Virus record (IMG/VR): IMGVR_UViG_3300037296_000054
Span: 1-35,556 of that record
Origin: a virus
Taxonomy: Duplodnaviria > Caudoviricetes
DNA length: 35,556 nt
Direction: 5' to 3' (one strand)
The position numbers were made by a program, and so were the translations under genes. Below, piece after piece: positions 1,220 to 33,704 of this stretch (position 1 is its first letter; each line of letters starts with the position of its first letter). The notes beneath the pieces are model-generated. The model had not been told where the DNA came from. It was given only the letters and a program-made list of their open reading frames with translations, and did not search any database.

Positions 1220-1516
1220 TTAGGGACGGACAACGCTGCGCGCGCTAATCTGTGACCCCTCGCAAATCATGCGCCACAACTCAATGTCCAGCGTTCCTGA
1301 CACGTCATCACGAGCGCTGGCATCCGCCACGCCAACGAAATACGCCACAACCTCGCGGGCAACAATTTCCGCCTCGTCCGCTGGCAGGTTCAACGGGTTT
1401 TCGCCATAGGCATATGCAACCGCGATGTCGCACGTCTGACCGCCAAGGATTTGCAGCCCAGTCTGGCCCTGCGCTTGTGTGGCAAAGATAGTGGCTGCGA
1501 GTATAGCTAGACGCAT
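1220..1516 (-). CDS. putative secreted/periplasmic protein (moron-like, opposite strand)
   Basis: ATG at 1516 gives MRLAILAATIFATQAQG, a signal-peptide-like N-terminus; AGGA SD upstream; 98 aa. Confidence 0.55.
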   Translation of the reverse strand: MRLAILAATIFATQAQGQTGLQILGGQTCDIAVAYAYGENPLNLPADEAEIVAREVVAYFVGVADASARDDVSGTLDIELWRMICEGSQISARSVVRP

Positions 1517-1586
1517 CGGGCAATCCTGTGTATGGTAAAGCCAATTTACCGCACAAGCAGCAGGTAGCACAACGGAATCGTGAAAA

Positions 1587-1973
1587 ATGCCAAAGGCAAT
1601 CCTATACACTGACAAAGTGGGCGATGCGATCTGTGAGCAGCTTGCAGAAGGTAAGTCGCTGGTCAAAATCCTCAAGTCGCCAAAGATGCCATCTTACTCG
1701 ACCGTGATGAAATGGTTGCGTTTGAATGATGAATTTGCAAAGAGTTACGCGCACGCGCGCGAGGACAGCGCAGACAACGACTTTGACAACGTGCGTGACA
1801 TTGGTGAACAGGTGCGGGCAGGATTGATTGACCCGTCTGCCGCGCGGGTTGCGATTGACGCACTCAAGTGGACCGCTGGCCAGATGCGCCCCAAAAAATA
1901 TGGCAACCATTTGGACGTGGACATGAAAGCCGCATTCAACGTCACCATCTCAGGTGACGACGCAGACCTGTGA
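1587..1973 (+). CDS. terS: terminase small subunit (Sf6/P22-like)
   Basis: AICEQLAEGKSLVKIL..MPSYSTVMKWL..F...YAHARE and ARVAIDALKW...PKKYG patterns; GTGA overlap with terL. Confidence 0.9.
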   Translation: MPKAILYTDKVGDAICEQLAEGKSLVKILKSPKMPSYSTVMKWLRLNDEFAKSYAHAREDSADNDFDNVRDIGEQVRAGLIDPSAARVAIDALKWTAGQMRPKKYGNHLDVDMKAAFNVTISGDDADL

Positions 1974-4900
1974 CATTCAGCCTGACGCCTAAGCAGCAAG
2001 AGGTTCGCCGCATCTTTGCGACTGCGGCTCGTTATGTGCTGGTCTACGGGGGTTCACGCTGCGTGTCCGGCGATACAGTGTTAGACGGCCAGCGCTTCAC
2101 GATTGCAGAACTCGCCGCTATCGGGAAGCCCGTCAAGGTCAGAACGTCGCACGGATCGCAATGGGCAGGCGCGCCGTATCGCAAGGGCGCGGTTGAACTG
2201 TTGCGGGTTGAGACTGACGACGGGCGCGTGGTGTCCGTGACGCCAGATCATCGATTCTGGGATGGGGCCGGATGGATTGCGGCCAAGGATATTATGGCCG
2301 GGGATGCTTTGGCGGTCGCCCAGTCATCCTCGCCTTCCCCTCGTCCGACCAGTTCGGCACCTTCCCTGCCAGTGTTTCGGCGAGGTGTTCCGCGTTCGAT
2401 GCAAACACGTCCAGATTGTCGGGATGATTGTTCGCCACGTCACCATCTATGTGATGGACAACCTCGCCCGGCATCAAGTCGCGGCCTAGTTTATCGTGCA
2501 TCACTATTCGATGCGTTGGAGCATATCCCCGCTTATCTCCATGCCGCAGCGCGCGAATTAGGTATCCATACGGGCCATCAGCATCAACCCGTTGGAGTTG
2601 ATAGCCAGACCTATCTAGCGTCACCCCGCCCTGCCACGACGGGTGATTTTCCATGGATTGATCTTGGCGCACAATCTCTAGCGACCGTCGCCGCGCGAAT
2701 TTGCGGATGGTTTCAGGGAACACACCGAACCGCGCAGCCAGAGCATCGGCAGTCTGCCCCTGCGCAATCAGGCGTTCAAGTTCCGCATAGTTTTGACGGC
2801 CAATCCTGCCAGTTGTTCGTTCCAAAGTCAGATACCCCCTGCGTGTCCGGCTATGATGTTCGCCGCGTTACCTGCATAACACGAACCGCCAAACAAGACT
2901 ACTACACTTTGCACGTCCCCGGCTGCGCGCAGTATTTTGCGAACGGAATGCTGCACCACAATTCTGGCAAGACGTTTTTCATCATTTACGCAATTATAAC
3001 TCGGATGCTCAAAGCGCCGGGGTCGCGTCATGTTGTCTTTCGGCAAGATGGCGTGGATGCCAAGCAGTCAATCGGCAATGAAACCGTTCCCGCTGTTATC
3101 GCGCTTGCGTATCCAGGATTGGAACTTAAGTGGCGCGAGAAGGATGGCTACTATGAGGCACCAAACGGATCGCAGTTGTGGCTTGCCGGTCTGAAAGACA
3201 AGGAACGCCTAGACAAGGTTCTCGGCAAGGAGTTCGTCACGATCTACTTGAACGAGGCCAGCCAGATCACGCTTGAGGCGCTGCGTGTGGTGCTGACCCG
3301 ATTAGCGCAGGTTGTCATGCAGACGGACGGGCGCAAGCTGACACAAAAGCTGTATGTTGACCTTAACCCGACAGTTGCTGCGCACTGGACCTACCAGATG
3401 TGGATATTGGGCTTGCGTCCCGATGATAGCACAAAAATCAGCGACCCCGAAAATTACGCCAGCATCACAATCAACCCTGCTGACAACGCGGCCAACCTAG
3501 ATCCGATCTACATCGAGAGCTTGGCAAACATGCCGGAACGGATGCGCCGCCGCTTCTATGACGGTGCGTTTACTGCTGACGATGATAACGCAATATGGCG
3601 GCGGTCCTATATCCAGTACGACGCGCTGCCTACCATGTCGCGGATTGTGGTTTCTATCGACCCCGCCACCACGTCCGAAGTCGGGTCTGACCTTACCGGC
3701 ATTATCGTGGCTGGCATTGGTGCGGATGGGCGCGGCTATGTCATCGCGGACGAGTCCGGCAAATATCGACCGGAGGAGTGGGCGCGCCGCGCTGTTTCGC
3801 TGTATGATACCTACGACGCCGACTGCATCGTGGCGGAAAAGAACCAAGGCGGCGACATGGTGGAAAGCATGGTCAAGGCCGCAGCCAAGGGTCGCACTGT
3901 GCCTTATCACGGGGTTACGGCCACAAGGGCAAAGCATATCCGGGCCGAGCCTGTTGCCGCGCTGTATGAGCAAGGCCGCGTCCGTCATGCCGAGGCGTTC
4001 CCTGAGCTTGAGGATGAGATGTGCTTTGTCGCAGGAACGCTTGTCGAGACAAACACAGGACAGGTTGCAATTGAGAACGTAAGGGCTGGGGATATGGTCT
4101 TGACCCGCGCCGGATTCCGTAAGGTTGAAGTTGCATGCAAAACAGGGACGGCGTATAGTGTGGTTGACATTGCGTCTCAGGACGGAAGGGCAATCACATG
4201 CACGGAAAATCATCCAATTTTCATACGGGACAAGTTTGTTCCTGCGTCAAGTGTTCGACCTGGCGACGTCCTGTTCGGAAGCCCCAACTGGGCGTCAACG
4301 GGGAGCCTATTGCTTGGCGGGGGCGCTGGTATCACAGAACAGTATCAGGACACTTCAAGCATGCTAAAGGGCCTTTGCTGCACAGGCTTATCTGGGAATC
4401 CCACGTCGGCCCGATCACGGACGGGAACCACATTCACCACAAAAACTCTGATCCGGGCGACAACCGCTTGGAAAACCTTGAGAGCCTATCTGCGGCAGAG
4501 CACTATGCTAAGCACGATCCTCGCGGGTGGCATGGCGACCCTAGTAAAAGTGGGGGCGGTGCTGAATCATGGGTGGGGCGTGTCTGGCACGACAAAGCAT
4601 GCGCGCATTGTGGGTCAGCGTACAAAACGCCATATCCGAACAAATCTCTGTTCTGTTCTGCCCCTTGCGGGCAAAGAGCAAGATCTGCTGCAAAAGTTGT
4701 GGAGCGTGGATGCACCCATTGTGGGAACGCCTATGAGGCACGCGATCCAAGGAGAAAGTATTGCAGTAGCGCATGTAACGACGCGGCGTATCATGCCCGC
4801 AAGCGTCTACAACTTAAAGGTTGAGGGTTTGCCGGAGTTTTTTGCCAATGGCATTCTAACGCACAACTGCGCGTTCACCGTCGGGTTCGACCGCAAGGCG

Positions 4901-5029
4901 CAAGGCTATTCCCCCGACCGTGTTGACGCGCTGGTCTGGGCATTTACCGATCTATTCCCCGCCATGACGCGCAAGCCGAAGCGCGCCGCTGCTGTATATG
5001 TGCCGCTGAATAACCCGATGGCGGGTTGA
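1970..5029 (+). CDS. terL: terminase large subunit precursor with two inteins (mature protein ~436 aa)
   Basis: Removing intein 1 restores Walker A GGSR|SGKT. Walker B IYLNEASQ, coupling motif DLNP, nuclease motifs VSIDPA, AEKNQGG and SPDRVDALVWA are present. Confidence 0.95.
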   Translation: MTFSLTPKQQEVRRIFATAARYVLVYGGSRCVSGDTVLDGQRFTIAELAAIGKPVKVRTSHGSQWAGAPYRKGAVELLRVETDDGRVVSVTPDHRFWDGAGWIAAKDIMAGDALAVAQSSSPSPRPTSSAPSLPVFRRGVPRSMQTRPDCRDDCSPRHHLCDGQPRPASSRGLVYRASLFDALEHIPAYLHAAARELGIHTGHQHQPVGVDSQTYLASPRPATTGDFPWIDLGAQSLATVAARICGWFQGTHRTAQPEHRQSAPAQSGVQVPHSFDGQSCQLFVPKSDTPCVSGYDVRRVTCITRTAKQDYYTLHVPGCAQYFANGMLHHNSGKTFFIIYAIITRMLKAPGSRHVVFRQDGVDAKQSIGNETVPAVIALAYPGLELKWREKDGYYEAPNGSQLWLAGLKDKERLDKVLGKEFVTIYLNEASQITLEALRVVLTRLAQVVMQTDGRKLTQKLYVDLNPTVAAHWTYQMWILGLRPDDSTKISDPENYASITINPADNAANLDPIYIESLANMPERMRRRFYDGAFTADDDNAIWRRSYIQYDALPTMSRIVVSIDPATTSEVGSDLTGIIVAGIGADGRGYVIADESGKYRPEEWARRAVSLYDTYDADCIVAEKNQGGDMVESMVKAAAKGRTVPYHGVTATRAKHIRAEPVAALYEQGRVRHAEAFPELEDEMCFVAGTLVETNTGQVAIENVRAGDMVLTRAGFRKVEVACKTGTAYSVVDIASQDGRAITCTENHPIFIRDKFVPASSVRPGDVLFGSPNWASTGSLLLGGGAGITEQYQDTSSMLKGLCCTGLSGNPTSARSRTGTTFTTKTLIRATTAWKTLRAYLRQSTMLSTILAGGMATLVKVGAVLNHGWGVSGTTKHARIVGQRTKRHIRTNLCSVLPLAGKEQDLLQKLWSVDAPIVGTPMRHAIQGESIAVAHVTTRRIMPASVYNLKVEGLPEFFANGILTHNCAFTVGFDRKAQGYSPDRVDALVWAFTDLFPAMTRKPKRAAAVYVPLNNPMAG
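2060..2962 (+). mobile_element. intein 1 in the TerL Walker A loop (301 aa)
   Basis: Cys1 CVSGDT, block B VTPDHRF, block F/G YYTLHVPGCAQYFANGMLHHN, followed by Ser+1. Confidence 0.93.
2292..2825 (-). CDS. HNH homing endonuclease encoded antisense inside intein 1
   Basis: N-terminal HTH (ADALAARFGVFPETIRKFARR), ENHPSWQGG motif, HNH core HRIVMHDKLGRDLMPGEVVHHIDGDVANNHPDNL. TTG start preceded by AGGGGG SD on the minus strand. Confidence 0.88.
   Translation of the reverse strand: MERTTGRIGRQNYAELERLIAQGQTADALAARFGVFPETIRKFARRRSLEIVRQDQSMENHPSWQGGVTLDRSGYQLQRVDADGPYGYLIRALRHGDKRGYAPTHRIVMHDKLGRDLMPGEVVHHIDGDVANNHPDNLDVFASNAEHLAETLAGKVPNWSDEGKARMTGRPPKHPRP
4022..4867 (+). mobile_element. intein 2 in the TerL nuclease domain (282 aa)
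   Basis: Cys1 CFVAGTLV, block B CTENHPIF, block F/G VYNLKVEGLPEFFANGILTHN, followed by Cys+1; spliced junction LEDEM|CAF. Confidence 0.93.
4198..4824 (+). CDS. HNH endonuclease with two C-terminal Cys4 zinc-finger repeats, in the -1 frame inside intein 2
   Basis: LHRLIWESHVGPITDGNHIHHKNSDPGDNRLENL; CAHC..FCSAPC and CTHC..YCSSAC. GGAAGGG lies 7 nt before ATG 4198; the true start is uncertain. Confidence 0.87.
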   Translation: MHGKSSNFHTGQVCSCVKCSTWRRPVRKPQLGVNGEPIAWRGRWYHRTVSGHFKHAKGPLLHRLIWESHVGPITDGNHIHHKNSDPGDNRLENLESLSAAEHYAKHDPRGWHGDPSKSGGGAESWVGRVWHDKACAHCGSAYKTPYPNKSLFCSAPCGQRARSAAKVVERGCTHCGNAYEARDPRRKYCSSACNDAAYHARKRLQLKG

Positions 5030-5101: not shown

Positions 5102-7198
5102 GTGGCCCGTCAATCTAAAGCTGATAAATGGTCAAAGGTTCACGCTGACGCGCTGGCCGAGTTTTCCAATATCGAATCCGCAGCGCACGACGAACGGCAG
5201 CAGGCCGTCGAGGACCGCCGCTTCTACAGCTTGGCTGGCGCACAATGGGCTGGCCCGCTTGGCGAGCAGTATGAAAACCGCGTTCGCCTTGAGATTAACA
5301 AGGTTCACCTGGCGTTGATCCGTATCATCAATGAATATCGGAACAACCGGATATCAGTCCAGTTTGTCAGCAAGTCTGGCGAGGCTGACGACGATCTGGC
5401 CGACCTTTGCGCGGGATTGTATCGCGCCGATGAGCAGGACAGCGAAGCTGACGAGGCATTTGATAACGCCTTTGAGGAGGCGCTGGGCGGGGGATTTGGC
5501 GCGTATCGCCTGCGGACTGAATACGAGGACGACGAGGACGACGAGGACGACCGCCAGCGCATCCGCCTAGAGCCGATCTATGACGCGGACACCTGCGTTT
5601 ACTTCGACCTGAACGCCAAGCGGCAAGACAAGTCCGACGCCAAGTCGTGCTTTGTGCTGACCGCAATGTCGCCCGCCGCCTATGAGGACGCTTGGGGCGA
5701 TAACCCCGCGACGTGGCCGAAAGACATGACGTCCAACGGTAGCTTTATGTGGTGCACCCCGGAGGCCGTCTATGTAGCCGAAGTCTACCGCGTTGAGGAG
5801 GTTAGCGAAACGGTCCAGACGTGGCTGCACCTTGACGGGTCCGAGGAGCGCACGGTGCTAGACGACGACACTGACGCCGCGTCAGAGATGACCTCGCTGG
5901 GGGCTGTCTGGCTGCGTGACAAGCAGGTGAAGCGCCGGAAGGTTCGCAAGTGGATTATGTCGGGCGGCAAAGTGCTGTCTGATGAGGGCTATATCGCTGG
6001 CAACCTAATCCCGATCATCCCTGTATATGGCAAGCGATGGTTTGTAGATAACGTTGAGCGATTCATGGGCCATGTTCGTTTGGCCAAGGATGCCCAGCGC
6101 CTGCTCAACATGCAGATGTCTGGCCTTGCCGAGATTAGCGCCAAGTCGCCCATTGAAAAGCCGATCTTTTTGGCTGAACAAATGGCTGGCCACGAACGGA
6201 TGTGGGCAGACGATCCGGTCAAGAACTATGCCTATATGCTGGTCAACCCGATTGAGGATGCGTCCGGCAATGAAATGCCTTCCGGCCCTGTCGGATACAC
6301 TAAGCCACCCGCTGTTCCGCCTGCCATGGCTGCACTGTTGCAGCTTGCTGACCAATCCGTCCGCGACATTCTGGGCAACCAGGAACAGGGCGACGAGATG
6401 CAGGCTAATCAGTCGGGCATCGCCGTGGAGGCCGTGCAGAAGCGGCTGGACATGCAAACCGAGATTTACCTGTCCAACTTCGCCAAGGCCATGAAGCGCA
6501 CTGGCGAGGTGTGGCTGTCGATGGCAAAAGACGTGCTGGTCGAAAAAGGCCGCAAGATGAAAACCGTCGGCGTGTCCGGCGAGTCTGAAATGGCAGAGAT
6601 TTACAGCGCCCCCAAGACTGACATCAAGACGGGCGACATCCACTACCAGAACGATATGAGCCGCGCCAAGTTTGACGTTGCCGTAACCGTCGGCCCATCG
6701 TCCACGTCCAAGCGCCAAGCAACTGTGCGCAGCCTCACAACCATGATGCAGATGACCGCTGACCCTGAGATGCAGATGGTTCTCGGCTCTATGGCGCTGA
6801 TGAACATGGAGGGCGAAGGCATTAGCGACGTGCGCCGGTATGCGCGCAAGAAGCTGGTTGCAATGGGCGTCATTGATCCGACCGAGGACGAAAAGGCCGA
6901 GATGGAAGAAGCCGCAGCCAACCAGCAACCGGACGCAAACGCCGCGCTGTTGCTGGCATCCGCCGAGGAGGCTATGGCTAAGGCCGAGAAGGTTAAAGCC
7001 GAAACGCAGAAGGTTGTCGCGGAGATTGACGAAACCCACGCAGATACGGCATACTCTACCGCACGCGCAATCAAGACTTTGGAAGAAGCCAGAGACTTAG
7101 GCGCTACAGAATTACCCGGTGCTGGCGAGGAACTTTCCGCCGCACCGACACAACGGCCAGCCGCCCAGCCGATCCAACCGGGTGAGATTACGGGGTAA
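5102..7198 (+). CDS. portal protein (P22 gp1-like)
   Basis: 698 aa after terL; GAQW, INKV, YRADEQDS, G.VRLAKDAQRL.N, SGIAV and long helical C-terminal barrel typical of P22-family portals. Confidence 0.93.
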   Translation: MARQSKADKWSKVHADALAEFSNIESAAHDERQQAVEDRRFYSLAGAQWAGPLGEQYENRVRLEINKVHLALIRIINEYRNNRISVQFVSKSGEADDDLADLCAGLYRADEQDSEADEAFDNAFEEALGGGFGAYRLRTEYEDDEDDEDDRQRIRLEPIYDADTCVYFDLNAKRQDKSDAKSCFVLTAMSPAAYEDAWGDNPATWPKDMTSNGSFMWCTPEAVYVAEVYRVEEVSETVQTWLHLDGSEERTVLDDDTDAASEMTSLGAVWLRDKQVKRRKVRKWIMSGGKVLSDEGYIAGNLIPIIPVYGKRWFVDNVERFMGHVRLAKDAQRLLNMQMSGLAEISAKSPIEKPIFLAEQMAGHERMWADDPVKNYAYMLVNPIEDASGNEMPSGPVGYTKPPAVPPAMAALLQLADQSVRDILGNQEQGDEMQANQSGIAVEAVQKRLDMQTEIYLSNFAKAMKRTGEVWLSMAKDVLVEKGRKMKTVGVSGESEMAEIYSAPKTDIKTGDIHYQNDMSRAKFDVAVTVGPSSTSKRQATVRSLTTMMQMTADPEMQMVLGSMALMNMEGEGISDVRRYARKKLVAMGVIDPTEDEKAEMEEAAANQQPDANAALLLASAEEAMAKAEKVKAETQKVVAEIDETHADTAYSTARAIKTLEEARDLGATELPGAGEELSAAPTQRPAAQPIQPGEITG

Positions 7199-14562: not shown

Positions 14563-17414
14563 TGGCGGATTATCTGCAATACGCCAACCAAGGTGCAAAG
14601 CGGGCGTTGCCGATAGATGACAGCCTGATTAACGCAATGGCGTTTCTGGGGGACATGGGCGTCACGATGCGCGTTGTGTCGGGCGGACAGGCGTCTAAGG
14701 ACGAATTGCGCGCCGAGGCGGCGGCTAATGGTCTAGCCGGATCTGCGATTGACGCCTATGTCAAAGAGCACAGCACTGGCAGCGACCGCCACGATCACGG
14801 CAAGTCTGCGGACGTGGACTTTTACAAAGATGGGCGCAAGCTGGATTGGAACAACGCGGACGATCTGCCGACATTTCAAACCATCGTTAAAAACGCGCGG
14901 GCGAACGGGATCACCGGCATAGGCGCGGGCGACGATTACATGGGCGCTGGGCGGATGCACATTGGCTATGGCCCTGCGGCTGTCTGGGGCGCGGACGGCA
15001 AGGGCGCCAACGCCCCGTCATGGCTGCGTGCTGCGTATGATGGCGCGCCTCAAGGCGTGTCCGGCGGTGGCGGCGCTGACACGATGGTCGGGCAAGCGGC
15101 TGAAGACACGCTGGGCCTGCCCGCTATTCCGCAGGCATTGCAGGACGCCTATGATGCTGGACGGCTGACACCGGAAATGCGGGCCGCGTTTGAGGCTAAA
15201 TTCATGCCAGCCCCTGTCGCTGGCGGCACCACTGCGCCAACGCCTACTGCCCCGCCGTTGCCTACGGCGCGCTTTATCCCCATTGATGTTGCCTCGGCAT
15301 ATGCGGCTGGCACGATGGACCCTGACAAGCGGGCGCGGCTGGATAGCCTGCTAACTGCCGGTCAAGTGGCTCTGCCGACGCAGACCGCGATTGATAACTG
15401 GAACATGACGCCGAAAGGTGTTGACCCTGCCGGCGCGGTCGGCCCTGGCAATACGCGCGGCACGTTCGACCGGACCCGCGAACTTGGCGGCGATATGCTG
15501 AACGCATCGGCACAATACGCTGCTGGCGCGACTGGCCTTGGCCCGTCCGTCACGGCACAACAGTTGCCGGATGCTATCCCCGAAGTGGCGCGGCGCGTTA
15601 TCGGCGGCGGTGCTGATTTGGGCATGGCGGCACTGACTGGCGTTGCTGGTCTGTCGCAAGGCGCGGCTGGATTGGTTGGCGATGCTGCGGATGCTTTCGG
15701 CATGAACCCCGCAAGCGCTGACCGCCTGTCCTATGACTTGGCCGCGATGCCAGACGCCTTCGCTGGTAGTCCCGGCATGGTGACACGGCCCGGCGCGAAC
15801 CTGCCCCGCACAACGCCGGAAGCGCGCCCCGTCGCGCAGGCTGCGGCGCGCGTTGAGCCGCCTGTGACGGCCCTGCCCGACGATCCCGCCACCGTTGGGC
15901 GTCTGGTATCGCAGGCAAGCCGCACGGAAAAGCCTAACGCCTCGCAACGCCGCTTGGCCGCTGGAATGGATATAGACCCCGAAGCCAAGGCTGCGGCGGA
16001 TTCGCTTGGCTTTGATTTGCCGCCTGACGTTATGTCGAACAACCAGCAGATCCGCGAGGCTGCGGGCCTGACACGTTCGCAGGCTGGCACGTCTACATCT
16101 GCATCATGGCGTGACACGGTGGCGCGCGCGTCTGACCGTGCGTTGGAAGTCATGGGCGAGATTAAATCCACCAACCTATCTGAAATTTCCGAGCGCGTGA
16201 AAACATCGCTGCGTGCGACCCGCGACGACCTGAACACGCAGGCGGGCGCGATCTATGATCAGATCGGGCAGCAAGTTGGCAAGCGGGCGATCATCGAGCC
16301 GAACAACATGGTGCGGTCTCTGAATGAGACAATCATGGATCTGGGCGGCGAGGCTGGCATGTCCAAAGCCGAGCGCGACCTGTTTGCGCTTGTGACCGGC
16401 GACCAGCCTATCACCTATGAGCGCCTGTCGCGTGAACGCCGCGCGGTTGGCCGTGCTATTTCGCGCGGCGATGGACCTTATGCCGACGCAGACCAAGCAT
16501 CGCTCAACCGTATTTACGGGGCTATGGCCGAGGACCAACTGGCCAACGTCGAACGTCTGGCAGGTCCGGAGGCCCGGGCCAACCTAGAGGCGGCAAACGC
16601 GCTTTACACACAACAGAAAGACCTAGAAGGCACCATAGTCAGCGCGTTCGGCAAAGACGGCGAAGGCAGCATCGCGTCTAAACTAGTCACGGCTGTAAAC
16701 GGCGGGGCCAAGCGGGGCGATATTTCGGGCCTTAACCGCGTGCTGAACGCTATTCCAAAAGACTTGCGCGGCGAGGCAATGGCCACGGCAATCGGCCATG
16801 TTGCATCGTCCACAGGATCGACTGCCAGCCCGTTCAACTTCGCGGCCTATTCCAGCATGTATAAGGGTATGCGCGACAACCCAGCAGTTTATTCCCGCGT
16901 CATTGGCGAACTTGGTCCAGAGGCGGACGGCATCCTACGCGGCCTCTATGTGGTGTCAGACCGTGTAACAAAAGCCCGCGCGAACGTGCTAACGACGGGC
17001 AAGGCGAACCAGTCTCTCGTCAACAGCCTGACCGCAGACGGGCTTGTCAATCGCGTGATGGAAACGTCTATTGGGCGGCGGGCGACACAAGGCGCGGCGA
17101 CTATGGCCGGGGCGGCGGCAGGCGGTGCGCCGGGGGCTGTAGCTGGCAATGCGATTGCCGAGGCGCTGGCCAAAGGCGGTCGCAACCATATCGACCAAGC
17201 GGGCCGCATGTTTTCCAGCCCTGAGTTTCAGCGCCTTGTGACCGAGGCGGCAACGCAGGCAACCCCATCGCGGCAGGCCATCAATGGCGTGACCAATTCG
17301 GCACCGTACCGCCGATGGGCGCGCGCGTCCGGCATCCAGAACCCCGACCAATGGCTTGCACAAGCCGTCATCATGTCCACACAAGCCACGGCGGAGCCAA
17401 ACAATGTCCAATAG
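14562..17414 (+). CDS. large ejection protein (gp16-like) with an N-terminal M15-like zinc peptidase domain
   Basis: 950 aa; STGSDRHDHGKSADVDF (H-x6-D) plus GITGIG...RMHIG. Confidence 0.8.
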   Translation: MADYLQYANQGAKRALPIDDSLINAMAFLGDMGVTMRVVSGGQASKDELRAEAAANGLAGSAIDAYVKEHSTGSDRHDHGKSADVDFYKDGRKLDWNNADDLPTFQTIVKNARANGITGIGAGDDYMGAGRMHIGYGPAAVWGADGKGANAPSWLRAAYDGAPQGVSGGGGADTMVGQAAEDTLGLPAIPQALQDAYDAGRLTPEMRAAFEAKFMPAPVAGGTTAPTPTAPPLPTARFIPIDVASAYAAGTMDPDKRARLDSLLTAGQVALPTQTAIDNWNMTPKGVDPAGAVGPGNTRGTFDRTRELGGDMLNASAQYAAGATGLGPSVTAQQLPDAIPEVARRVIGGGADLGMAALTGVAGLSQGAAGLVGDAADAFGMNPASADRLSYDLAAMPDAFAGSPGMVTRPGANLPRTTPEARPVAQAAARVEPPVTALPDDPATVGRLVSQASRTEKPNASQRRLAAGMDIDPEAKAAADSLGFDLPPDVMSNNQQIREAAGLTRSQAGTSTSASWRDTVARASDRALEVMGEIKSTNLSEISERVKTSLRATRDDLNTQAGAIYDQIGQQVGKRAIIEPNNMVRSLNETIMDLGGEAGMSKAERDLFALVTGDQPITYERLSRERRAVGRAISRGDGPYADADQASLNRIYGAMAEDQLANVERLAGPEARANLEAANALYTQQKDLEGTIVSAFGKDGEGSIASKLVTAVNGGAKRGDISGLNRVLNAIPKDLRGEAMATAIGHVASSTGSTASPFNFAAYSSMYKGMRDNPAVYSRVIGELGPEADGILRGLYVVSDRVTKARANVLTTGKANQSLVNSLTADGLVNRVMETSIGRRATQGAATMAGAAAGGAPGAVAGNAIAEALAKGGRNHIDQAGRMFSSPEFQRLVTEAATQATPSRQAINGVTNSAPYRRWARASGIQNPDQWLAQAVIMSTQATAEPNNVQ

Positions 17415-19275
17415 CGTCCAGCAGGCGTTTCCAACTTTCTTTGACGCGAACGGCCTAGCGCTTGAAGCTGGCTATATTTACGTCGGGCGTGAGGGGTTTG
17501 ACGCGCAAAGCAACCCGGTCGCCGTGTATTGGGACCGTGACCTAACCATCCATGCAGAGCAGCCCGTTCGCACGTTGGCAGGATATCCGTCACGCGACGG
17601 AAGCCCCGCAATGATATACACTGAGGGCGGCTTTTCGCTGACGGTGCGGAATAAGTTTCTGGAGCTTGTTTATAGCGCCCTGCGGCCAACCCTTGCCGTG
17701 TCAACACCGCAAATTGAGTTTGCAGACCGTTCTGCACTATCCGCTGCACTATCGGACGGCCTGACCCCGATTGACGGATTGCTCTATGTGGCGGACGGAC
17801 TGCAATACGTCGGATCGCCGGGGGCTACGGTCATCGCTGACCTGCCGGGGCTTGTCCCGTTTGGTATCCCCATCTTTGAGCATTTCGGGGCCAAGGGCGA
17901 CGGCGTTACCGATGACAGCGTGGCAATGCAGGCCTGTGTCAACTATGTCGAAAGCATAGGCGGCGGCGTTATCTTTGCGCGGGCCGTGACCTATATCTCT
18001 AACAACGTCACGGTGCCTTCAAAGGTTTACGTCGTAGGCTCGGGCATCAACGCCACCACTTTTAAGGCCTCGGCAAACAACGCAGTCATGCGGCTTGGAA
18101 CGCTGGGCATCCCCTCGAACGGCGGCGGTATCAGCCACGCTGACATTCGCGGCTACTGGAACCAAGTAGAGGGCGAGCGCACAAGCAGCTTCGGAGTTGT
18201 CGTTACGCAATCGAATAAGGGCGCGCTGTCGCACCTTCGCGTCCTGTCCTGCCATGTTGGGATTGTGTTTATCCAATGCAGCAAGGCAACCTGCGACGAG
18301 GTAACGGTGCTTGGCGCTGGCACGGACCAAAACCGGATCGGGTTTTTGCAGCCTGAGCAGACGGTGTTGCTTAACAGAAACGCTGTGATTTTCACGCGAT
18401 GCACGGCGCTTCGCTGTAGCCTTTACGGATTCCGCATCATCACTGGCAGCGGGTCGCAGTATTCGGATTGCGAAGTCGCCGGTTCGCCTGCAAACGACAC
18501 GACGCAGATCGGTTTCTACGTTGGCGATCCTGTCGGGGCAACGCCCGCAACGGTCGAGTTTATGCACTTTGCAAACTGCCTCGCGGACCAATGTTCGTCG
18601 CACAATATCCTGTTCTCTAAAGGTACAGCGACCTTGATGCGGGATATCCAGTGGCAGGGGCTTTGGTCTGGCGGATCGAACAACACCGGCCTGCGCGTTG
18701 TTGATGGTATCGGTATGCAGTTTTCCGGCATCATCTGCCGCGATGCGGTTAGCTGGGGCGTAAATTTCCTGCGCTGCACTGACTGCACAATCACGGGCGG
18801 CGTGATTAAGGAGTGGAATAAGGGCAACCCCGCGACGGGCGGCGCGGCTGGCATCTTGCTTCAAGACTGTTTCCGGTGCGTTGTGACTGGTAACGCCGTT
18901 CGCTCTACATACACCACAGCGCCTGACGTTGTTTCCATCCGTGAGGAAGGCACATCGAACCAGAACGTAATCGTCGGCAACGGCGCGGTGAACGGCGGCA
19001 AGATCACTGGCGCGGATAGCCTATGGAACAACAACGAGGGCATCAAGACGACCGAAAGCGGCACAGCCGAAGTCGCTGGCGGATCTACGTCTATTGTCGT
19101 ATCGCATGGGGCTAACTTCACACCGACGTTCGGTCAGGTCCAGTTGACGCCAAGGGATAACCCCGGCGCTAACTATTGGGTCAGCGCCATTACAGCAACG
19201 ACATTCACGATTAGCATGGCGTCCGCCCCCGGTGGCGCGATCCGGTTTGGCTGGAATGTGAGCCGCAGCCAATGA
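17404..19275 (+). CDS. tailspike 1: P22-like head-binding domain plus beta-helix depolymerase
   Basis: FFDANGLALEAGYIYVG...NPVAVYWD; FGAKGDGVTDDS pectate-lyase-3-type entry motif; beta-helix repeats. Confidence 0.9.
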   Translation: MSNSVQQAFPTFFDANGLALEAGYIYVGREGFDAQSNPVAVYWDRDLTIHAEQPVRTLAGYPSRDGSPAMIYTEGGFSLTVRNKFLELVYSALRPTLAVSTPQIEFADRSALSAALSDGLTPIDGLLYVADGLQYVGSPGATVIADLPGLVPFGIPIFEHFGAKGDGVTDDSVAMQACVNYVESIGGGVIFARAVTYISNNVTVPSKVYVVGSGINATTFKASANNAVMRLGTLGIPSNGGGISHADIRGYWNQVEGERTSSFGVVVTQSNKGALSHLRVLSCHVGIVFIQCSKATCDEVTVLGAGTDQNRIGFLQPEQTVLLNRNAVIFTRCTALRCSLYGFRIITGSGSQYSDCEVAGSPANDTTQIGFYVGDPVGATPATVEFMHFANCLADQCSSHNILFSKGTATLMRDIQWQGLWSGGSNNTGLRVVDGIGMQFSGIICRDAVSWGVNFLRCTDCTITGGVIKEWNKGNPATGGAAGILLQDCFRCVVTGNAVRSTYTTAPDVVSIREEGTSNQNVIVGNGAVNGGKITGADSLWNNNEGIKTTESGTAEVAGGSTSIVVSHGANFTPTFGQVQLTPRDNPGANYWVSAITATTFTISMASAPGGAIRFGWNVSRSQ

Positions 19276-19685
19276 TGCGTCTTGGCCCCCTTGTCCGCGC
19301 GAACATGAACGCGAGTTTGGTTTCGTTTCTAGGCGTTGTCTATGATCTACGCCTAGAAAACCTTGCCGGAATCCAGATCCGCGATGGCGCTGGCGACGTG
19401 GTGCAGGTCCGCGATGACGCGGGTGACGTTATCACGATGCTAGACACGCGGTATTTGCTGGCTGGTTCGCCGGGCGTAGGTTCAACGGCCATCATCACGG
19501 GCCTGCCGACTATGGCCCGCATCCGCGCGGGGTCGCCGCTTGTAATATATTCTGGCGCGTTGCGGGAATATCGTATCATCACAAGAACAGTCGTGGCGTC
19601 AGGCGGTGCCGCTATTGTCCAGATTACAGAGCCGATCACAGTGATCGGCATCGCGTCAATAGGCACACCAGAGGGTTTCGCATGA
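19272..19685 (+). CDS. hypothetical beta-rich protein between the tailspikes (possible adaptor)
   Basis: ATGA-coupled at both ends; duplicated motif QIRDGAGDVV/QVRDDAGDVI. Confidence 0.6.
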   Translation: MMRLGPLVRANMNASLVSFLGVVYDLRLENLAGIQIRDGAGDVVQVRDDAGDVITMLDTRYLLAGSPGVGSTAIITGLPTMARIRAGSPLVIYSGALREYRIITRTVVASGGAAIVQITEPITVIGIASIGTPEGFA

Positions 19686-21463
19686 CCGCAATTACCATTT
19701 TAAACGACGGCGTTAAGTATATCCCGATTGGCGCAGTTGAAGCGCAGGGGCGGCGCTATCTCGCGCGGATTGATGCAATCGCAGCGCTGCCAAACATGCC
19801 GCTTTGGACGACATTCACGGCTGGGCGTCTGTCGTATGTCAAGAACGGCGGATCAGCCATTGCGGATATGCCAGGCTGCGCGCCGCTGGACGAAATCACG
19901 CCTAACCACTTCCAAGACAACGTGACTGAGAACGTGACGGATATGTCGGTGGGCAGTATGGCCGCTATTGCCTACGCATCCACCTTCAAGGCCGGGGCTG
20001 GCTTCGGGTCAGGCAACACAGTGTTGTTTCTGGATCAGCAATACCGTCTGACGCAAAGCCTGCCTGTCCGGCAGTCCGGTGTTAGCATCAAGGGCGTCAA
20101 CCGCAACCGCAGCAAGATCAATTTTGATAACCCGACGGGGGTTCTGTTCGACTTCGCTGCTGCAAACACGCTTTCCGGCACGCAGCTTGCGCGAAACTAC
20201 ATCGAGAACCTGACGCTGGAATGTACCGCAGCAGACCCAACGGGAGCCGTGCTCATCCGAATGACGCGTGGCGCACAGGCTGGCATCAAGCAGATCACTT
20301 TCATCAACCCCTATCGCTGCATTGAATTGCTGGGAACTGGCGAAACCGTAGTCATTGATGATACGACCTCGGCGCACGGTAGCAATAGCACGTCTTATAA
20401 GGCCGGCTCTGCAACGCTATTCCTTGGTCGGGCAGAAGTATCGTCTGGCGGTTATCTGGATACGGTCGACGGAAAGTATTATACCGAGCCGAATAGCGTA
20501 TATGTGAGCAACTCCAACTGGCGTTCAGGTAATAACGGCGTCATGGACAACGTGATCATCGGCTGCGTCGATGGCCTTTACATGAGCAATAATCACATCG
20601 GCTTCGCTAAAAATGCTTGCATGAAGATCAGCGCGCAGCAGGACGTCATATCCGTCAACAACATCAACGTATCGAATACATTCTTCGACCCCAACCCTAC
20701 GTTTGGCACGGCTTACGGCGTCCTCATCGACGGCACGCTGGGGTCAGCCATTGCGACCGTAGGCACTCTGAATTTCACCGGCTGCGATATTGGCGGCGGC
20801 GACATTGCAGGCGTTGCGATCAAGGCTAAGTGCGGGCGCTTTGTTTACAACGGCGGCACTGTGAAAGGGACTGGCGGACCAGCTTTCGACGTGGACCATG
20901 CCGATGCCGAGGACGTGGTTGTCAACGGTGTCAGCATCTATGCGACAAACCGGTCAGCGCCGGGCGGGAACAAGCCAGCCGTGCTTCTGCAACGAGGCAA
21001 GAAAGCGACTGTCGTCAACTGCCCAATTAGTTCGGGCTATCGCGGCGTCCATATCGCAGCGGCGTTCAACCGCGCCCATGTTGCAGGCAATACCTTTGAC
21101 AGCCTGACTAACGGCGTGTCGATCTACCTAGAGGACGCGCACCAAGATAATCACACCTTCAGCGTGAATAACATTGTTGAGAGCATGACCGTCGCATCCA
21201 CGTCTGTCCTGAGCCTGCCGCTTGGCGGCACCGACGTTTTCTACGTGACTGGCACTAACAGCTTCTCGGCTATTCGCACCCAAGCCCCCTCAAGCACAGT
21301 GACGGGCCGTATCGTCACACTGATTTTCGAGGGTATTCTGAACGCGAACAATGGCACGAACGTCCGCACGGCTGGCGGGGTCAACTTCCCGACGTCGGCT
21401 GACATGGTTGTGCAGTTTGTCTATAAGAACGGCAAATGGCGCGAAATGAGCCGCGCCGCGTAA
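19682..21463 (+). CDS. tailspike 2 / beta-helix receptor-binding protein without a head-binding domain
   Basis: Beta-helix-like V/I/N/G repeats; C-terminal GRIVTLIF...WREMSR; N-terminal module resembles tailspike 1. Confidence 0.82.
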   Translation: MTAITILNDGVKYIPIGAVEAQGRRYLARIDAIAALPNMPLWTTFTAGRLSYVKNGGSAIADMPGCAPLDEITPNHFQDNVTENVTDMSVGSMAAIAYASTFKAGAGFGSGNTVLFLDQQYRLTQSLPVRQSGVSIKGVNRNRSKINFDNPTGVLFDFAAANTLSGTQLARNYIENLTLECTAADPTGAVLIRMTRGAQAGIKQITFINPYRCIELLGTGETVVIDDTTSAHGSNSTSYKAGSATLFLGRAEVSSGGYLDTVDGKYYTEPNSVYVSNSNWRSGNNGVMDNVIIGCVDGLYMSNNHIGFAKNACMKISAQQDVISVNNINVSNTFFDPNPTFGTAYGVLIDGTLGSAIATVGTLNFTGCDIGGGDIAGVAIKAKCGRFVYNGGTVKGTGGPAFDVDHADAEDVVVNGVSIYATNRSAPGGNKPAVLLQRGKKATVVNCPISSGYRGVHIAAAFNRAHVAGNTFDSLTNGVSIYLEDAHQDNHTFSVNNIVESMTVASTSVLSLPLGGTDVFYVTGTNSFSAIRTQAPSSTVTGRIVTLIFEGILNANNGTNVRTAGGVNFPTSADMVVQFVYKNGKWREMSRAA

Positions 21464-21494
21464 TTACACCACATAACCCCAAGGAGACGACACC

Positions 21495-21734
21495 ATGACA
21501 GACGAACGCAAGGCAATCGAGGCGGCGCAGGACGCGCTATGCACGCTAAAGCAGGCGATGCGTACCATTCAGGACATCAACACCAAGTCCGGCAACCTTG
21601 AGGCTGCTAACGCGGCCATGGGGCTGCGCGGCGAGTTGATCGTCTGGCACAGCAACGCGACGGCCACGATGCACGCCTATTTCCCAGAGTTTGCGTCTGA
21701 TATCCAGACGCGGGGCGGCGGCGGCGGTCGCTAA
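21495..21734 (+). CDS. small protein ending in TRGGGGGR
   Basis: Strong AAGGAG SD; 79 aa. Confidence 0.75.
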   Translation: MTDERKAIEAAQDALCTLKQAMRTIQDINTKSGNLEAANAAMGLRGELIVWHSNATATMHAYFPEFASDIQTRGGGGGR

Positions 21735-21736
21735 CC

Positions 21737-22189
21737 ATGGACGACTGGCAGTTACTCTATGCCGGTCTGCTAACGCTGGCGACCCTAATGGGTCGTCCGC
21801 ACAAAGCGCTATTGCTGGTGATGTGGGGCAACTTTGTCCTGACGATCCTAGTTAACGGCGACCCTCGCGCTGTGGCCATTGCCGACATCATCTGCGCTTC
21901 GGTTCTAGTCCTGCGCACTCCCCGCGAGGCTATCATCGCGGCTTTGTTCGTTTTGATGATTCCAGTTTACATTCTGTCGCATCACCTATCGTGGCAAATT
22001 GGCGCAACCTATGCGATCGTAGACGCAATCGCATACGCACAACTGTGCGTGGTGGGAAAGGTTGACGGTGGATATTCTGGTCTCAAGCATTATTTTATTC
22101 AACGCAGCCATTCTGGGCGTGATCGTGTGGCTTCGACTTGGGCCAATTCGGGACATCAAGAACCATCTCGCAAGGAAAGCAGCCGATGA
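21737..22189 (+). CDS. multi-pass membrane protein
   Basis: About four hydrophobic segments, then a hydrophilic tail. Confidence 0.7.
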   Translation: MDDWQLLYAGLLTLATLMGRPHKALLLVMWGNFVLTILVNGDPRAVAIADIICASVLVLRTPREAIIAALFVLMIPVYILSHHLSWQIGATYAIVDAIAYAQLCVVGKVDGGYSGLKHYFIQRSHSGRDRVASTWANSGHQEPSRKESSR

Positions 22190-22395
22190 CTGACCCGCAA
22201 CGATTATCAGCAATCGAGGGGCGTCTATCGGCCTTGGAGATGCGCAACGCTGTGGACGAGGTGCATCATACCAATGTCACAACGCGCCTGGGTTCTATTG
22301 AGGACACGCTCAAGTGGCTTGTGCGGCTGATGATCGGCGGGATGCTGTTAGCGTTTGTCGGTTATGCAATGGGGGGCGGCTTGAGTGTTATTTAA
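22186..22395 (+). CDS. XhlA-like / holin-like small membrane protein
   Basis: ATG 22186; coiled coil RLSALE..RLGSIEDTLKWLVRL plus a C-terminal TM segment. Confidence 0.75.
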   Translation: MTDPQRLSAIEGRLSALEMRNAVDEVHHTNVTTRLGSIEDTLKWLVRLMIGGMLLAFVGYAMGGGLSVI

Positions 22396-22846
22396 GCGTC
22401 ACATTAGCTTTCTGATCGGCGGGCTGTTTATGCTGGCCGCGTTTTACCTAACGCCGCTTGCGGGGCGCGTAGAGGGCAAATATTTCCCTGTCGCCAAGGA
22501 TGTGCGGATCACCGCCACAGAACGCACAAGCACGACGTGGACGCGGTTCTGGGGCGGTTTTGATAAGGTGCGCGACTGCGACTTTGTGCGGATTGATTGG
22601 GCGCTACAAATTGGCGGGAATTACGCGGTCGCTGACTTCCGTTTTGATGAGGGGCCAAAGATCAGATACGGCGGCGGCGAGGAGTTCGGGCCGTGGTCAG
22701 TGCAGCTTAACGTCGAGCAGCTACAGCATCGGGGATACGCCGTGGTGTTTCATCGCTGCCATCCGTTCTGGCTGACTGAAACGCTGTTCTATAAGGGGCC
22801 GGTTTCAACGGGTCCGCTGTTTGCGCCGTATGGTGCTTTGAAATAG
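22385..22846 (+). CDS. membrane-anchored hypothetical protein
   Basis: N-terminal TM segment; KVRDC...HRCHPFWLTET Cys pair. Confidence 0.7.
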   Translation: MLFKRHISFLIGGLFMLAAFYLTPLAGRVEGKYFPVAKDVRITATERTSTTWTRFWGGFDKVRDCDFVRIDWALQIGGNYAVADFRFDEGPKIRYGGGEEFGPWSVQLNVEQLQHRGYAVVFHRCHPFWLTETLFYKGPVSTGPLFAPYGALK

Positions 22847-28243: not shown

Positions 28244-28681
28244 TTACGGGTTAAGTTCGAGGCGGGCTTCAACCCACGCCAGCCAGTCGTGGTCTGGTCC
28301 GTATGCGGCTTCCCAAGTGGCTTGGCCGTTGTGGTAGCCGATCTTGGCTTCGTCGCCGGGGTAGGGTCGCAGCTTGTTGTGGTGACTGTGGCAAAGGGGC
28401 AGGGTCTTGGTGTCGTCCTCTCGCGCCGTTCCGTAGCGCCCGCTCTTGACGTGGTGCACTTCGGTCGGGCTATTCTGGCGCATGTCCCATTCCCAGCAGA
28501 TCACGCAGGGCAGGGCGGCAACGCGGGCCATGTGATCCAGACCAGCCTTGCCAGCGTCCGACGCACGGTGCGCTGCCCGCTTGTGGCTGATCTGCCGGAC
28601 GGGCTTGCGCAGCTTCGGCGCGTCCTTGCGGGTGCGGTCCTTTGCCAATGAGCCGATAGGGGCAATGCCTCGGATGCTCAT
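28244..28681 (-). CDS. HNH-like nuclease (Ref/DUF968-like)
   Basis: HMARVAALPCVIC...EVHH...TLPLCHSHH...H...WEAAYG. Confidence 0.8.
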   Translation of the reverse strand: MSIRGIAPIGSLAKDRTRKDAPKLRKPVRQISHKRAAHRASDAGKAGLDHMARVAALPCVICWEWDMRQNSPTEVHHVKSGRYGTAREDDTKTLPLCHSHHNKLRPYPGDEAKIGYHNGQATWEAAYGPDHDWLAWVEARLELNP

Positions 28682-29118
28682 GCCGACACCGGAACAGTCA
28701 GCACCACGCCAAGGCTCTCGAAGTGGACACGCACCGCGTCGAGGTAGGCTGTGAATTGCTTCGTCGTCATTTTGCTGGTGACGGGGAAGTCAATCGGGGC
28801 CTGCATCATCAGCAGCTTGGACTCGTATGGCAGGGGCTTCACGGTCGCCTTGTATTGGTCGCGCCACGCCTCGTTTTCGGCGTAGAGGATCGGCACCCCG
28901 ATATGCAGCTTGCACCAGCCGCGCTTTTCGTCTGCGGTGCCGTCGCCAAGCTGGGCGGCGGCTTCTGGATACCATTTGAACGATAGGTCATTCTGGCGGT
29001 TGCTGCGCTTGATGCCGTCCTCAATGGTGACGGTAAACGGCTTCTGGCGCTCCTTCATAAGCTGCACCAGATTGAACACGTCACGGGCTTCTTTGATGGG
29101 GCGCGTGGTTGTGCTCAT
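28678..29118 (-). CDS. NinB/Orf-like recombination protein
   Basis: KRSNRQN..FKWY, CKLHIGVPIL, PVTSKMTTKQFTAYL. Confidence 0.7.
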   Translation of the reverse strand: MSTTTRPIKEARDVFNLVQLMKERQKPFTVTIEDGIKRSNRQNDLSFKWYPEAAAQLGDGTADEKRGWCKLHIGVPILYAENEAWRDQYKATVKPLPYESKLLMMQAPIDFPVTSKMTTKQFTAYLDAVRVHFESLGVVLTVPVSA

Positions 29119-33504: not shown

Positions 33505-33704
33505 CCCGCCCCACGCTATCCCCAGCGCCGTTTGCCATTCCTTCCGCGCCTATCGCCCGATCCCGCGCGGCGCGTGTAGCCGTTGTGAGTTCCCGCGACC
33601 GCGTAGGCACTAGCTTCGCCTGGCACGTTGACGCGCGGACCTCGTATTACGTTCCCGCCCCTGACGCTGCGGCTGACGTGTGCGACCAGATCGGCGGTGT
33701 TTGA
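33501..33704 (+). CDS. hypothetical protein
   Basis: Coupled to both neighbours (ATGA and TGATG). Confidence 0.4.
   Translation: MTRPTLSPAPFAIPSAPIARSRAARVAVVSSRDRVGTSFAWHVDARTSYYVPAPDAAADVCDQIGGV

What the first reader, a model, noticed from the sequence alone, without database searches (positions are those of the whole stretch)
1970..5029. Overprinted-endonuclease inteins: both TerL inteins hide their HNH nuclease outside the intein reading frame
Seen: both inteins have intact N- and C-terminal splicing blocks, but about 170-200 in-frame residues between them are Ser/Thr/Pro/Arg-rich filler with no nuclease motif. In each case a recognisable HNH gene covers that interval in another frame. 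Established: canonical inteins carry the homing endonuclease in frame, as part of the spliced protein. Inference: here the intein acts as a protein-level bracket that excises whatever off-frame peptide a nested gene produces. An independently expressed gene could then sit inside an essential gene, provided the host frame stays stop-free, and nuclease expression would be uncoupled from late TerL synthesis. The two nucleases differ in architecture and orientation, which points to two independent origins in one gene. I recall separate-frame intein endonucleases being mentioned for actinobacteriophages, so novelty needs a literature check.
Basis: partly seen in the sequence, partly recalled or inferred. 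Interest (0 to 1): 0.93.

Follow-up and report, generated by a model that had tools for sequence, protein, structure and literature searches.

The report
Two inteins hiding off-frame HNH genes
A phage DNA-packaging gene carries two inserts predicted to splice themselves out of the protein, and each hides a separate, conserved gene for a likely DNA-cutting enzyme in another reading frame (one on the opposite strand) that likely spreads the insert; the layout is real and common in phages, but separate-frame intein nucleases of other types are already described.

Summary
Observation confirmed. terL (1970-5029, 1019 aa) is one open frame with two inteins (2060-2962, 4022-4867) leaving a 436-aa TerL. 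HNH_3 matches only nested ORFs, 2292-2825 (antisense) and 4198-4824 (+2 frame); the in-frame linkers match nothing, and intein 1's linker is predicted unstructured. Among viral relatives, 82 of 82 (HNH1) and 76 of 80 (HNH2) keep the same frame inside an intein; none is in frame. Selection acts on the HNH frame. The intein frame avoids stops (0 against 276 and 90 expected) with little amino-acid constraint. Start codons and ribosome-binding sites are conserved. The closest TerL relatives lack both inteins, so both likely arrived recently by homing. Best reading: two mobile intein-plus-nuclease elements, each nuclease translated separately. The architecture is in print (Gosselin 2025: antisense LAGLIDADG/VSR, frame-3 EndoVII, in terL); I found no paper with HNH_3 versions. 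This scan noted the class before on other DNA (at least 8 notes). Added here: both families in one gene, and signs that the arrangement is stable rather than transitional. Splicing, expression and cleavage are untested. New variant of a known kind; interest 0.5.

The parts
1970..5029 (+). terL precursor, 1019 aa; predicted mature TerL 436 aa, P22-like podovirus packaging module
   Evidence: (Terminase_6N, Terminase_3, Terminase_6C); neighbours terS 1587-1973 (Sf6_terminase) and portal 5102-7198 (P22_portal)
2060..2962 (+). Intein 1, 301 aa, inserted in Walker A (GGSR|SGKT); C1, block B TPDH, terminal HN, +1 Ser
   Evidence: AlphaFold2 splicing halves pLDDT 96-98, linker about 50 with no secondary structure; top fold hits are DnaB/RecA mini-inteins
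2292..2825 (-). HNH1: antisense nested gene, 177 aa, N-terminal helix-turn-helix plus HNH_3; TTG start
   Evidence: Pfam HNH_3 E 4.9e-7; PHROG HNH E 9e-19; model pLDDT 91; best fold hit I-HmuI 1u3e, prob 0.99, E 0.032; weak HTH hits
2835..2839 (-). Shine-Dalgarno-like GGGGG 9 nt before the HNH1 start, written on the Asp-Thr-Pro codons of the intein frame
   Evidence: sequence; duplex -10.7 kcal/mol; similar site with ATG/GTG/TTG at nearly the same place in the 16 close relatives aligned, window included
4022..4867 (+). Intein 2, 282 aa, inserted in the TerL nuclease domain (DEM|CAF); C1, block B TENH, terminal HN, +1 Cys
   Evidence: a related contig in run X1 joins 4021 to 4868; empty DQM|C sites in close TerLs
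4198..4824 (+). HNH2: nested gene in the +2 frame (frame 3 of the intein), 208 aa, HNH_3 plus C-terminal Cys-rich zinc-finger-like repeats; ATG overlaps the Thr-Cys codons of block B, TGA overlaps the Val-Glu codons of block F
   Evidence: Pfam HNH_3 E 1.1e-14; 6 full-length homologues at 48-60% with the same start; weak I-HmuI and zinc-finger hits
4184..4189 (+). Shine-Dalgarno-like GGAAGG 8 nt before the HNH2 ATG, on Gly-Arg codons of the intein
   Evidence: -6.2 kcal/mol
4154..4159 (+). Possible -10 box TATAGT, 44 nt before the HNH2 ATG (weak)
   Evidence: reached by 4% of synonymous recodings of the intein frame; no matching -35 passed the scan

Best explanation
terL carries two unrelated inteins, each predicted to splice itself out of the TerL protein together with an unstructured filler peptide, and each holds in another reading frame a conserved HNH gene that is likely translated on its own and likely cuts intein-free terL alleles so that the intein spreads by homing. 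Shown: both open frames, intact splicing motifs, HNH motifs, a fixed register across two families, purifying selection on the HNH frame, stop avoidance in the intein frame, conserved start signals, empty alleles in close relatives. Inferred: protein splicing; translation of HNH1 from an antisense transcript (required by its strand) and of HNH2 from terL mRNA or an internal promoter; cleavage of the empty site; recent separate arrival of both elements. Inferred origin: a free-standing HNH gene inserted into a mini-intein without a stop in the intein frame. Inferred reason for persistence: bringing HNH2 into frame needs two compensating indels and HNH1 an inversion, while one indel alone destroys essential TerL.
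For: Frame fixed in relatives found by HNH sequence alone: 82 of 82 HNH1 loci antisense in one register; 76 of 80 HNH2 loci in +2 frame, 4 free-standing, 0 in frame. In prokaryote genomes, all 17 of 80 loci scoring >=133 bits are antisense-nested. Nucleotide identity by HNH codon position 0.66/0.72/0.35 (16 close HNH1) and 0.61/0.65/0.42 (9 close HNH2). Amino-acid identity 0.585 in the HNH frame against 0.239 in the intein frame (null 0.214), and 0.509 against 0.316 (null 0.246). Closest pair L096/L097: pS 0.58, pN 0.08 in the HNH frame, 0.09 and 0.24 in the intein frame. Residues not in the search patterns are invariant: N137, N144, H147 in 64 of 64; N93, H102, H106 in 61 of 61. Intein-frame stops 0 against 276 expected (64 sequences) and 0 against 90 (61). 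Dipeptides that would force a stop are absent: F-[IMTNK] 0 against 46.7, M-[IMTNK] 0 against 19.6, each only in the family where it matters. SD stronger than intein-frame recoding where only one start is possible: 16 of 19 (p 0.002) and 20 of 29 (p 0.016). No intein in 80 of 80 TerL relatives; among the 7 closest (67-79%), each site is empty in 6 of 6 that show it. The window's TerL nests among those 7 (SH-aLRT 99, quick tree). For all 10 intein-1 relatives compared, the splicing domain (52-63%) is closer than the host TerL (39-47%). Four cultured or deposited phages keep a +2 HNH inside an open terL intein.
Against: No expression, splicing or cleavage data. Promoter evidence is weak: no -10 excess before HNH1 in the window (p 0.48) or in the single-start subset (4 against 3.5). 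The fold match to I-HmuI is below the usual threshold (E 0.032). pN/pS values are uncorrected and near saturation, and overlapping frames are not independent. For HNH2 part of the intein-frame excess over null comes from overlap with splicing blocks. Only the top 80 of 433 and of at least 521 viral candidates were seen, so in-frame forms may exist lower down; one distant in-frame case appeared in genomes (L332) and one in viral contigs (L007). One nested HNH has an internal stop (L031) and one intein frame a stop (L141). On the extein tree, 14 of 15 HNH1-intein TerLs form one group (support 91), which fits long vertical carriage as well as homing. Block F has Thr (intein 1) or Asn (intein 2) where Asp is usual (recalled).
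Confidence: 0.82

Rival explanations
1. The nested HNH genes are expressed and selected, but serve the phage (for example as packaging or recombination nucleases) and not intein homing.
For: HNH proteins assist some terminases (stated in PMC11855218 discussion); the genes sit inside terL; the HNH1-intein TerL group on the extein tree could be vertical.
Against: 80 of 80 TerL relatives, including the 7 closest, do without them; both carry DNA-binding add-ons like I-HmuI-type homing enzymes; the HNH2 family occupies many different insertion sites and HNH1 also helicase-like Walker A sites.
Confidence: 0.07
2. HNH2 is made by a programmed -1 frameshift as a TerL-intein-HNH fusion, not from its own start.
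For: The +2 frame is the -1 frame; some distant HNH2 relatives have weak SD or no start found (3 of 61 none).
Against: The HNH2 frame opens only 10 codons before the ATG (stop at 4165), and I saw no slippery heptamer there by eye. The 6 closest members, window included, have ATG or TTG at the same block-B position with an SD-like site. It cannot apply to antisense HNH1.
Confidence: 0.05
3. The nested ORFs are silent relics in this phage: the families were once mobile but these copies are inactive.
For: No promoter shown; relatives at 50-63% date selection to the lineage, not to the present; decay exists in the family (L031).
Against: Both ORFs are full length with all invariant residues and an SD; nesting among empty alleles implies recent gain.
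Confidence: 0.05
4. Assembly indels, or RNA-level splicing (introns with ORFs), produce the picture.
For: Metagenomic origin.
Against: Same register in 158 of 162 viral loci and in GenBank phages; X1 contigs agree letter for letter; no Rfam match in the window; complete protein-splicing fold.
Confidence: 0.01

Closest known systems
   Same: Intact splicing domain, unstructured in-frame filler, nuclease on the antisense strand or in frame 3, terL among the hosts, patchy distribution, proposed origin from free-standing nucleases.
   Different: Nuclease here is HNH_3/I-HmuI-like, which that paper lists only in frame. Two families share one gene. HNH2 overlaps the splicing blocks, whereas the paper says secondary ORFs typically lie outside them. 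The paper calls the layout rare and possibly transitional; here 158 of 162 viral relatives keep it and none is in frame.
ShiLan domain: out-of-frame HNH inside phage DNA methylases (PMC11855218; abstract, discussion and passages read)
   Same: HNH gene hidden in another frame while the host frame stays open; disordered in-frame product; HNH1 matches the nested HNH in the Mantra methylase at 33%.
   Different: ShiLan has no splicing domain and lies in a dispensable gene; here an intein is predicted to remove the filler from an essential gene.
Canonical inteins with in-frame LAGLIDADG or HNH endonuclease
   Same: Splicing motifs, insertion at conserved motifs such as Walker A, empty alleles in relatives.
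   Different: The endonuclease is not part of the excised protein.
Split inteins with a free-standing endonuclease gene between the halves (Dassa et al. 2009, known only as cited in the bioRxiv paper)
   Same: Separate nuclease gene between N- and C-terminal splicing halves.
   Different: Here the host frame is continuous, so splicing would be in cis; L141 with one intein-frame stop may be such a split, or an error.
I-HmuI (PDB 1u3e), HNH homing endonuclease
   Same: Best structural match to HNH1 and a weak sequence match to both.
   Different: Intron-encoded (recalled); DNA-binding modules differ: N-terminal HTH in HNH1, C-terminal Cys-rich fingers in HNH2.

Membership tests
Class 1 intein | N-terminal Cys, block B TxxH, terminal His-Asn, +1 Ser/Thr/Cys | tested here: met
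   C1 and N301 invariant, H64 and H300 >=90% in 61 aligned intein-1 sequences
Class 1 intein | HINT fold | tested here: met
   intein 1 model, halves pLDDT 96-98, top hits mini-inteins; intein 2 by Pfam only, not folded
Class 1 intein | Precise insertion; empty alleles restore the host motif | tested here: met
   GGSRSGKT and DQMC intact in close TerLs
Class 1 intein | Protein splicing occurs | not testable with these tools
   inferred from motifs and from deposited phages with such inteins in terL
Canonical full intein | Endonuclease in frame with the splicing domain | tested here: not met
   linkers match 0 families; HNH_3 only off frame
Separate-frame-nuclease inteins (Gosselin 2025) | Nuclease ORF antisense or in frame 3, intein frame open | tested here: met
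Separate-frame-nuclease inteins (Gosselin 2025) | In-frame filler has no fold | tested here: met
   intein 1 residues about 90-260, pLDDT about 50, no secondary structure; intein 2 linker by HMM and conservation only
Separate-frame-nuclease inteins (Gosselin 2025) | Patchy distribution suggesting continued transfer | tested here: met
   quick tree only
The three described subtypes (antisense LAGLIDADG, antisense VSR, frame-3 EndoVII) | Nuclease family | tested here: not met
   only HNH_3 and DUF2116 in Pfam at E<=0.1; Gordonia is not among the ten genera tallied for HNH2 (19 of 59 records not listed); their EndoVII sequences were not compared directly
ShiLan-type insertion | No self-splicing domain | tested here: not met
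Split intein with intervening endonuclease gene | Host gene broken into two ORFs | tested here: not met
   one 1019-codon frame
HNH homing endonuclease (HNH_3, I-HmuI-like) | His-metal finger residues conserved | tested here: met
HNH homing endonuclease (HNH_3, I-HmuI-like) | Fold like I-HmuI | tested here: inconclusive
   top hit, prob 0.99 but E 0.032, TM 0.36; HNH2 not folded
HNH homing endonuclease (HNH_3, I-HmuI-like) | Cuts the empty allele near the insertion site | not testable with these tools
   no assay
Group I/II intron with ORF | Intron RNA structure | tested here: not met
   0 Rfam matches in the window at gathering scores

The most novel reading that the evidence does not exclude
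Overprinted-HNH inteins are not rare transitional forms but two old, widespread and evolutionarily locked classes of phage mobile element, in which the intein's own coding DNA supplies the nested gene's ribosome-binding site, start and stop. The antisense class has its own transcript, so nuclease timing and dose are freed from late terL expression. The intein works as a general carrier that lets an independently expressed gene live inside an essential gene, and two such carriers can stack in one gene.
Probability: 0.5. Interest if true: 0.68.

Novelty: new variant of a known kind. Interest (0 to 1): 0.5.

Why it matters
It shows two natural, long-lived cases of dual coding in which one frame is under amino-acid selection and the other mainly has to avoid stops, leaving a predictable footprint (missing dipeptides, forced rare codons). 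It suggests many terL inteins annotated as degenerate or mini hide active nucleases that gene callers miss: the nested HNH is unannotated in TJE1, phiCDHM19, Highwayman and LS06. It bears on how inteins gain endonucleases: the published idea that off-frame forms slide into frame is not seen in 158 nested cases. Cultured carriers and empty alleles make expression and homing directly testable. The principle itself is already published.

Tried and rejected
No RNA holder listed for this stretch; this says nothing on expression. Single-sequence scan for HNH2 loci found none; the alignment search did. Sigma-70 scan: 1 promoter-like site against 2.5 expected. A -10 excess in both families may reflect base composition; in the stricter subset it held for HNH2 (12 against 3.0) but not HNH1 (4 against 3.5), so no promoter is claimed. 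The and SD figures pick the best start and are biased; one search is the fair test. Intein 1 has no match among GenBank phages, so no cultured carrier of the antisense family was found. Foldseek gave no HNH1 hit at E<=0.001. The careful extein tree did not finish; the quick one is cited. The splicing-domain tree has few columns and no outgroup. Rows dropped: L095, L024, L050, L053 (alignment ran past the ORF end), L031 (true internal HNH stop), L141 (intein-frame stop). Literature: 7 full-text searches found no paper on off-frame HNH_3 inside an intein; PMC6669764, PMC12613952, PMC1513399, PMC10885494, PMC12768974 and bioRxiv 2022.08.31.505936 were seen as listings only. The library lacks most subscription journals, and the Gosselin supplements could not be seen and may list such cases. 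Rejected: assembly artefact, intron, folded in-frame domain.
Full report
Observation. The window is a 35.6-kb virus record with a P22-like head module. terL at 1970-5029 is open for 1019 codons. Two inteins lie at 2060-2962 (301 aa, in Walker A, GGSR|SGKT) and 4022-4867 (282 aa, in the nuclease domain, DEM|CAF); their removal leaves 436 aa. Both start with Cys, have TxxH in block B, end in His-Asn and are followed by Ser or Cys. Pfam finds HNH_3 only in an antisense ORF, 2292-2825 (HNH1, 177 aa, E 4.9e-7), and a +2-frame ORF, 4198-4824 (HNH2, 208 aa, E 1.1e-14). The in-frame linkers match nothing in Pfam or PHROGs. An AlphaFold2 model of intein 1 from 61 sequences gives splicing halves at pLDDT 96-98 and about 170 linker residues near 50 without secondary structure; its best fold hits are mini-inteins. 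HNH1 folds at pLDDT 91, with I-HmuI as top but sub-threshold hit (E 0.032). HNH1 has an N-terminal helix-turn-helix and HNH2 has C-terminal Cys-rich fingers (weak hits).

Not an artefact. Contigs of run X1, perhaps the source of the window, cover both inteins with no difference or gap. More decisively, relatives found with HNH patterns alone keep the layout. Of 82 viral loci with HNH1 relatives (37-62% identity; the best 80 of at least 521 candidates plus 2), 82 are antisense in one register inside an intein, 81 with both splicing blocks in one open frame. Of 80 HNH2 loci (26-63%; best 80 of 433), 76 are in the +2 frame inside an intein, 4 are free-standing and none is in frame. In prokaryote genome records (best 80 of 126), the 17 loci scoring at least 133 bits are all antisense-nested; 62 weaker ones are free-standing and 1 is in frame. 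Record titles span Proteobacteria, Planctomycetes, Clostridia and archaea, though bins may misplace phage contigs. TJE1, phiCDHM19, Highwayman and LS06-2018-MD07 carry an unannotated +2 HNH within an open terL intein.

Selection. In 16 close HNH1 and 9 close HNH2 sequences, nucleotide identity by HNH codon position is 0.66/0.72/0.35 and 0.61/0.65/0.42. HNH position 3 is position 2 of the intein codon in both registers, so the normally most constrained intein position is the most variable. Amino-acid identity is 0.585 in the HNH1 frame against 0.239 in the intein frame (null 0.214), and 0.509 against 0.316 (null 0.246) for HNH2, whose ends overlap splicing blocks. The closest pair has pS 0.58 and pN 0.08 in the HNH frame and 0.09 and 0.24 in the intein frame (uncorrected, near saturation). 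Asn and His residues outside the search patterns are invariant in 64 of 64 and 61 of 61 dereplicated sequences. The intein frame has 0 stops against 276 and 90 expected from synonymous shuffles, while the other off-frames hold hundreds. Dipeptides that force a stop are missing only where they matter: Phe-[IMTNK] 0 against 46.7 in HNH1, Met-[IMTNK] 0 against 19.6 in HNH2. Ile before an A-starting codon is ATA in 50 of 50 cases in HNH1. Exceptions: L031 has an internal HNH stop and L141 a stop in the intein frame.

Expression signals. HNH1 starts at TTG 2825 with GGGGG 9 nt upstream; the 16 close sequences have a start at nearly this place with an SD-like site on conserved Asp-x-Pro intein codons. 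HNH2 starts at ATG 4198, formed by the Thr-Cys codons of block B, with GGAAGG 8 nt upstream, and stops at a TGA formed by Val-Glu codons of block F. The 6 closest members have ATG or TTG there. Where only one start is possible, the SD is stronger than after recoding the intein frame in 16 of 19 and 20 of 29 loci. Promoter evidence is weak and mixed. HNH1 needs an antisense transcript; HNH2 need not be uncoupled from terL.

Mobility. None of the 80 best TerL relatives has an intein. Among the 7 closest (67-79%), each site is empty in the 6 that show it, and the window's TerL nests among them (SH-aLRT 99, quick tree). The nearest intein-1 relatives are 52-63% identical in the splicing domain but sit in TerLs 39-47% identical; the nearest intein-2 relative is 71% against 53%. 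A contig at depth 6.6 in X1, from a related but different sequence, joins 4021 to 4868, the intein 2 bounds; letters between are not known and one side is 33 bases, so it is only consistent with an empty allele in the same sample. The HNH1 family targets Walker A of diverse TerLs and two helicase-like genes; the HNH2 family occupies many sites. Splicing domains of the two families fall on opposite sides of one branch (support 96, 118 rows, few columns). Both families also share one gene in L108 and L163, among 7 multi-intein hosts of 123. Against: 14 of 15 HNH1-intein TerLs group together, so vertical carriage also occurs.

Mechanism. Most likely each element is an intein that captured a free-standing HNH gene off frame. 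TerL is translated through both and spliced; each nuclease is made from its own start and cuts empty alleles during co-infection; repair copies the intein. Splicing, translation, cleavage and homing are inferred. The absence of in-frame forms fits a lock: HNH2 would need two compensating indels, HNH1 an inversion, and one indel destroys TerL (inference). Rivals are a phage-serving nuclease (0.07), frameshifting for HNH2 (0.05), silent relics (0.05) and artefact or intron (0.01).

What is known. Gosselin et al. (bioRxiv 10.1101/2025.01.02.630785; supplements not seen) describe inteins, many in terL, with antisense LAGLIDADG, antisense VSR-like and frame-3 EndoVII-like nucleases, unstructured in-frame filler, origin from free-standing nucleases and signs of transfer. 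HNH appears there only in frame. Arsenault et al. (PMC11855218) describe off-frame HNH without an intein; HNH1 matches the Mantra copy at 33%. Seven searches found no paper on off-frame HNH_3 in inteins. This scan's notes record the class in other genomes at least 8 times (unchecked AI notes, seen after my reading was formed) and nothing for this genome.

Verdict. New variant of a known kind: HNH-type, two families, both in one gene, widespread and apparently stable. Interest 0.5.

Noticed in passing
L109:614-3841 (-): terL with two inteins, each holding an antisense HNH1-type gene (Walker A and AFYD|CNPP sites).
   Followed up: partly
L108:443-3952 (-), L163:599-3889 (-): Other terL genes carrying both an antisense HNH1-type and a sense HNH2-type intein; the L163 HNH2 appears in two pieces.
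   Followed up: partly
L112:2840-3706 (-), L131:2807-3706 (-): HNH1-type intein at LD|TGLGKS and LD|CGMGKT, a helicase-like Walker A, suggesting host switching through the shared nucleotide-binding motif.
   Followed up: no
L141:2996-3793 (-): Intein frame broken by one stop while the antisense HNH is intact: a possible natural split intein or a sequence error.
   Followed up: partly
L031:1878-2369: Nested HNH with an internal stop inside an open intein frame: possible decay.
   Followed up: partly
L254:201-2595 (phiCD119, AY855346): terL is annotated as three ORFs; it resembles the intact intein-bearing terL of phiCDHM19, with the +2 HNH unannotated.
   Followed up: partly
L255:1246-1938 (Mycobacterium phage Mantra): Off-frame HNH in the methylase (ShiLan type) is a distant relative of HNH1.
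   Followed up: partly
L007:2221-4737, L332: Distant HNH_3 nucleases in frame inside inteins (a helicase-like gene in L007).
   Followed up: no
L117 upstream of the nested HNH; L004, L119, L142, L164: Near-consensus sigma-70 signals on the antisense strand (TTGACA-18-TATAAT in L117; TGnTATAAT in the others), good candidates for testing the antisense promoter.
   Followed up: no
window 1220-1675 (-): 151-aa ORF with a signal-peptide-like segment, opposite to and partly overlapping terS; no PHROG match.
   Followed up: no
window 28244-29861 (-), 33680-34081 (+): Recombination genes (single-strand annealing protein, NinB, Ref/HNH-like, RusA) that could support homing repair.
   Followed up: no
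window 17356-22846: Tail-spike-like gene followed by several ORFs, including 593 aa at 19682-21463, with no PHROG match.
   Followed up: no
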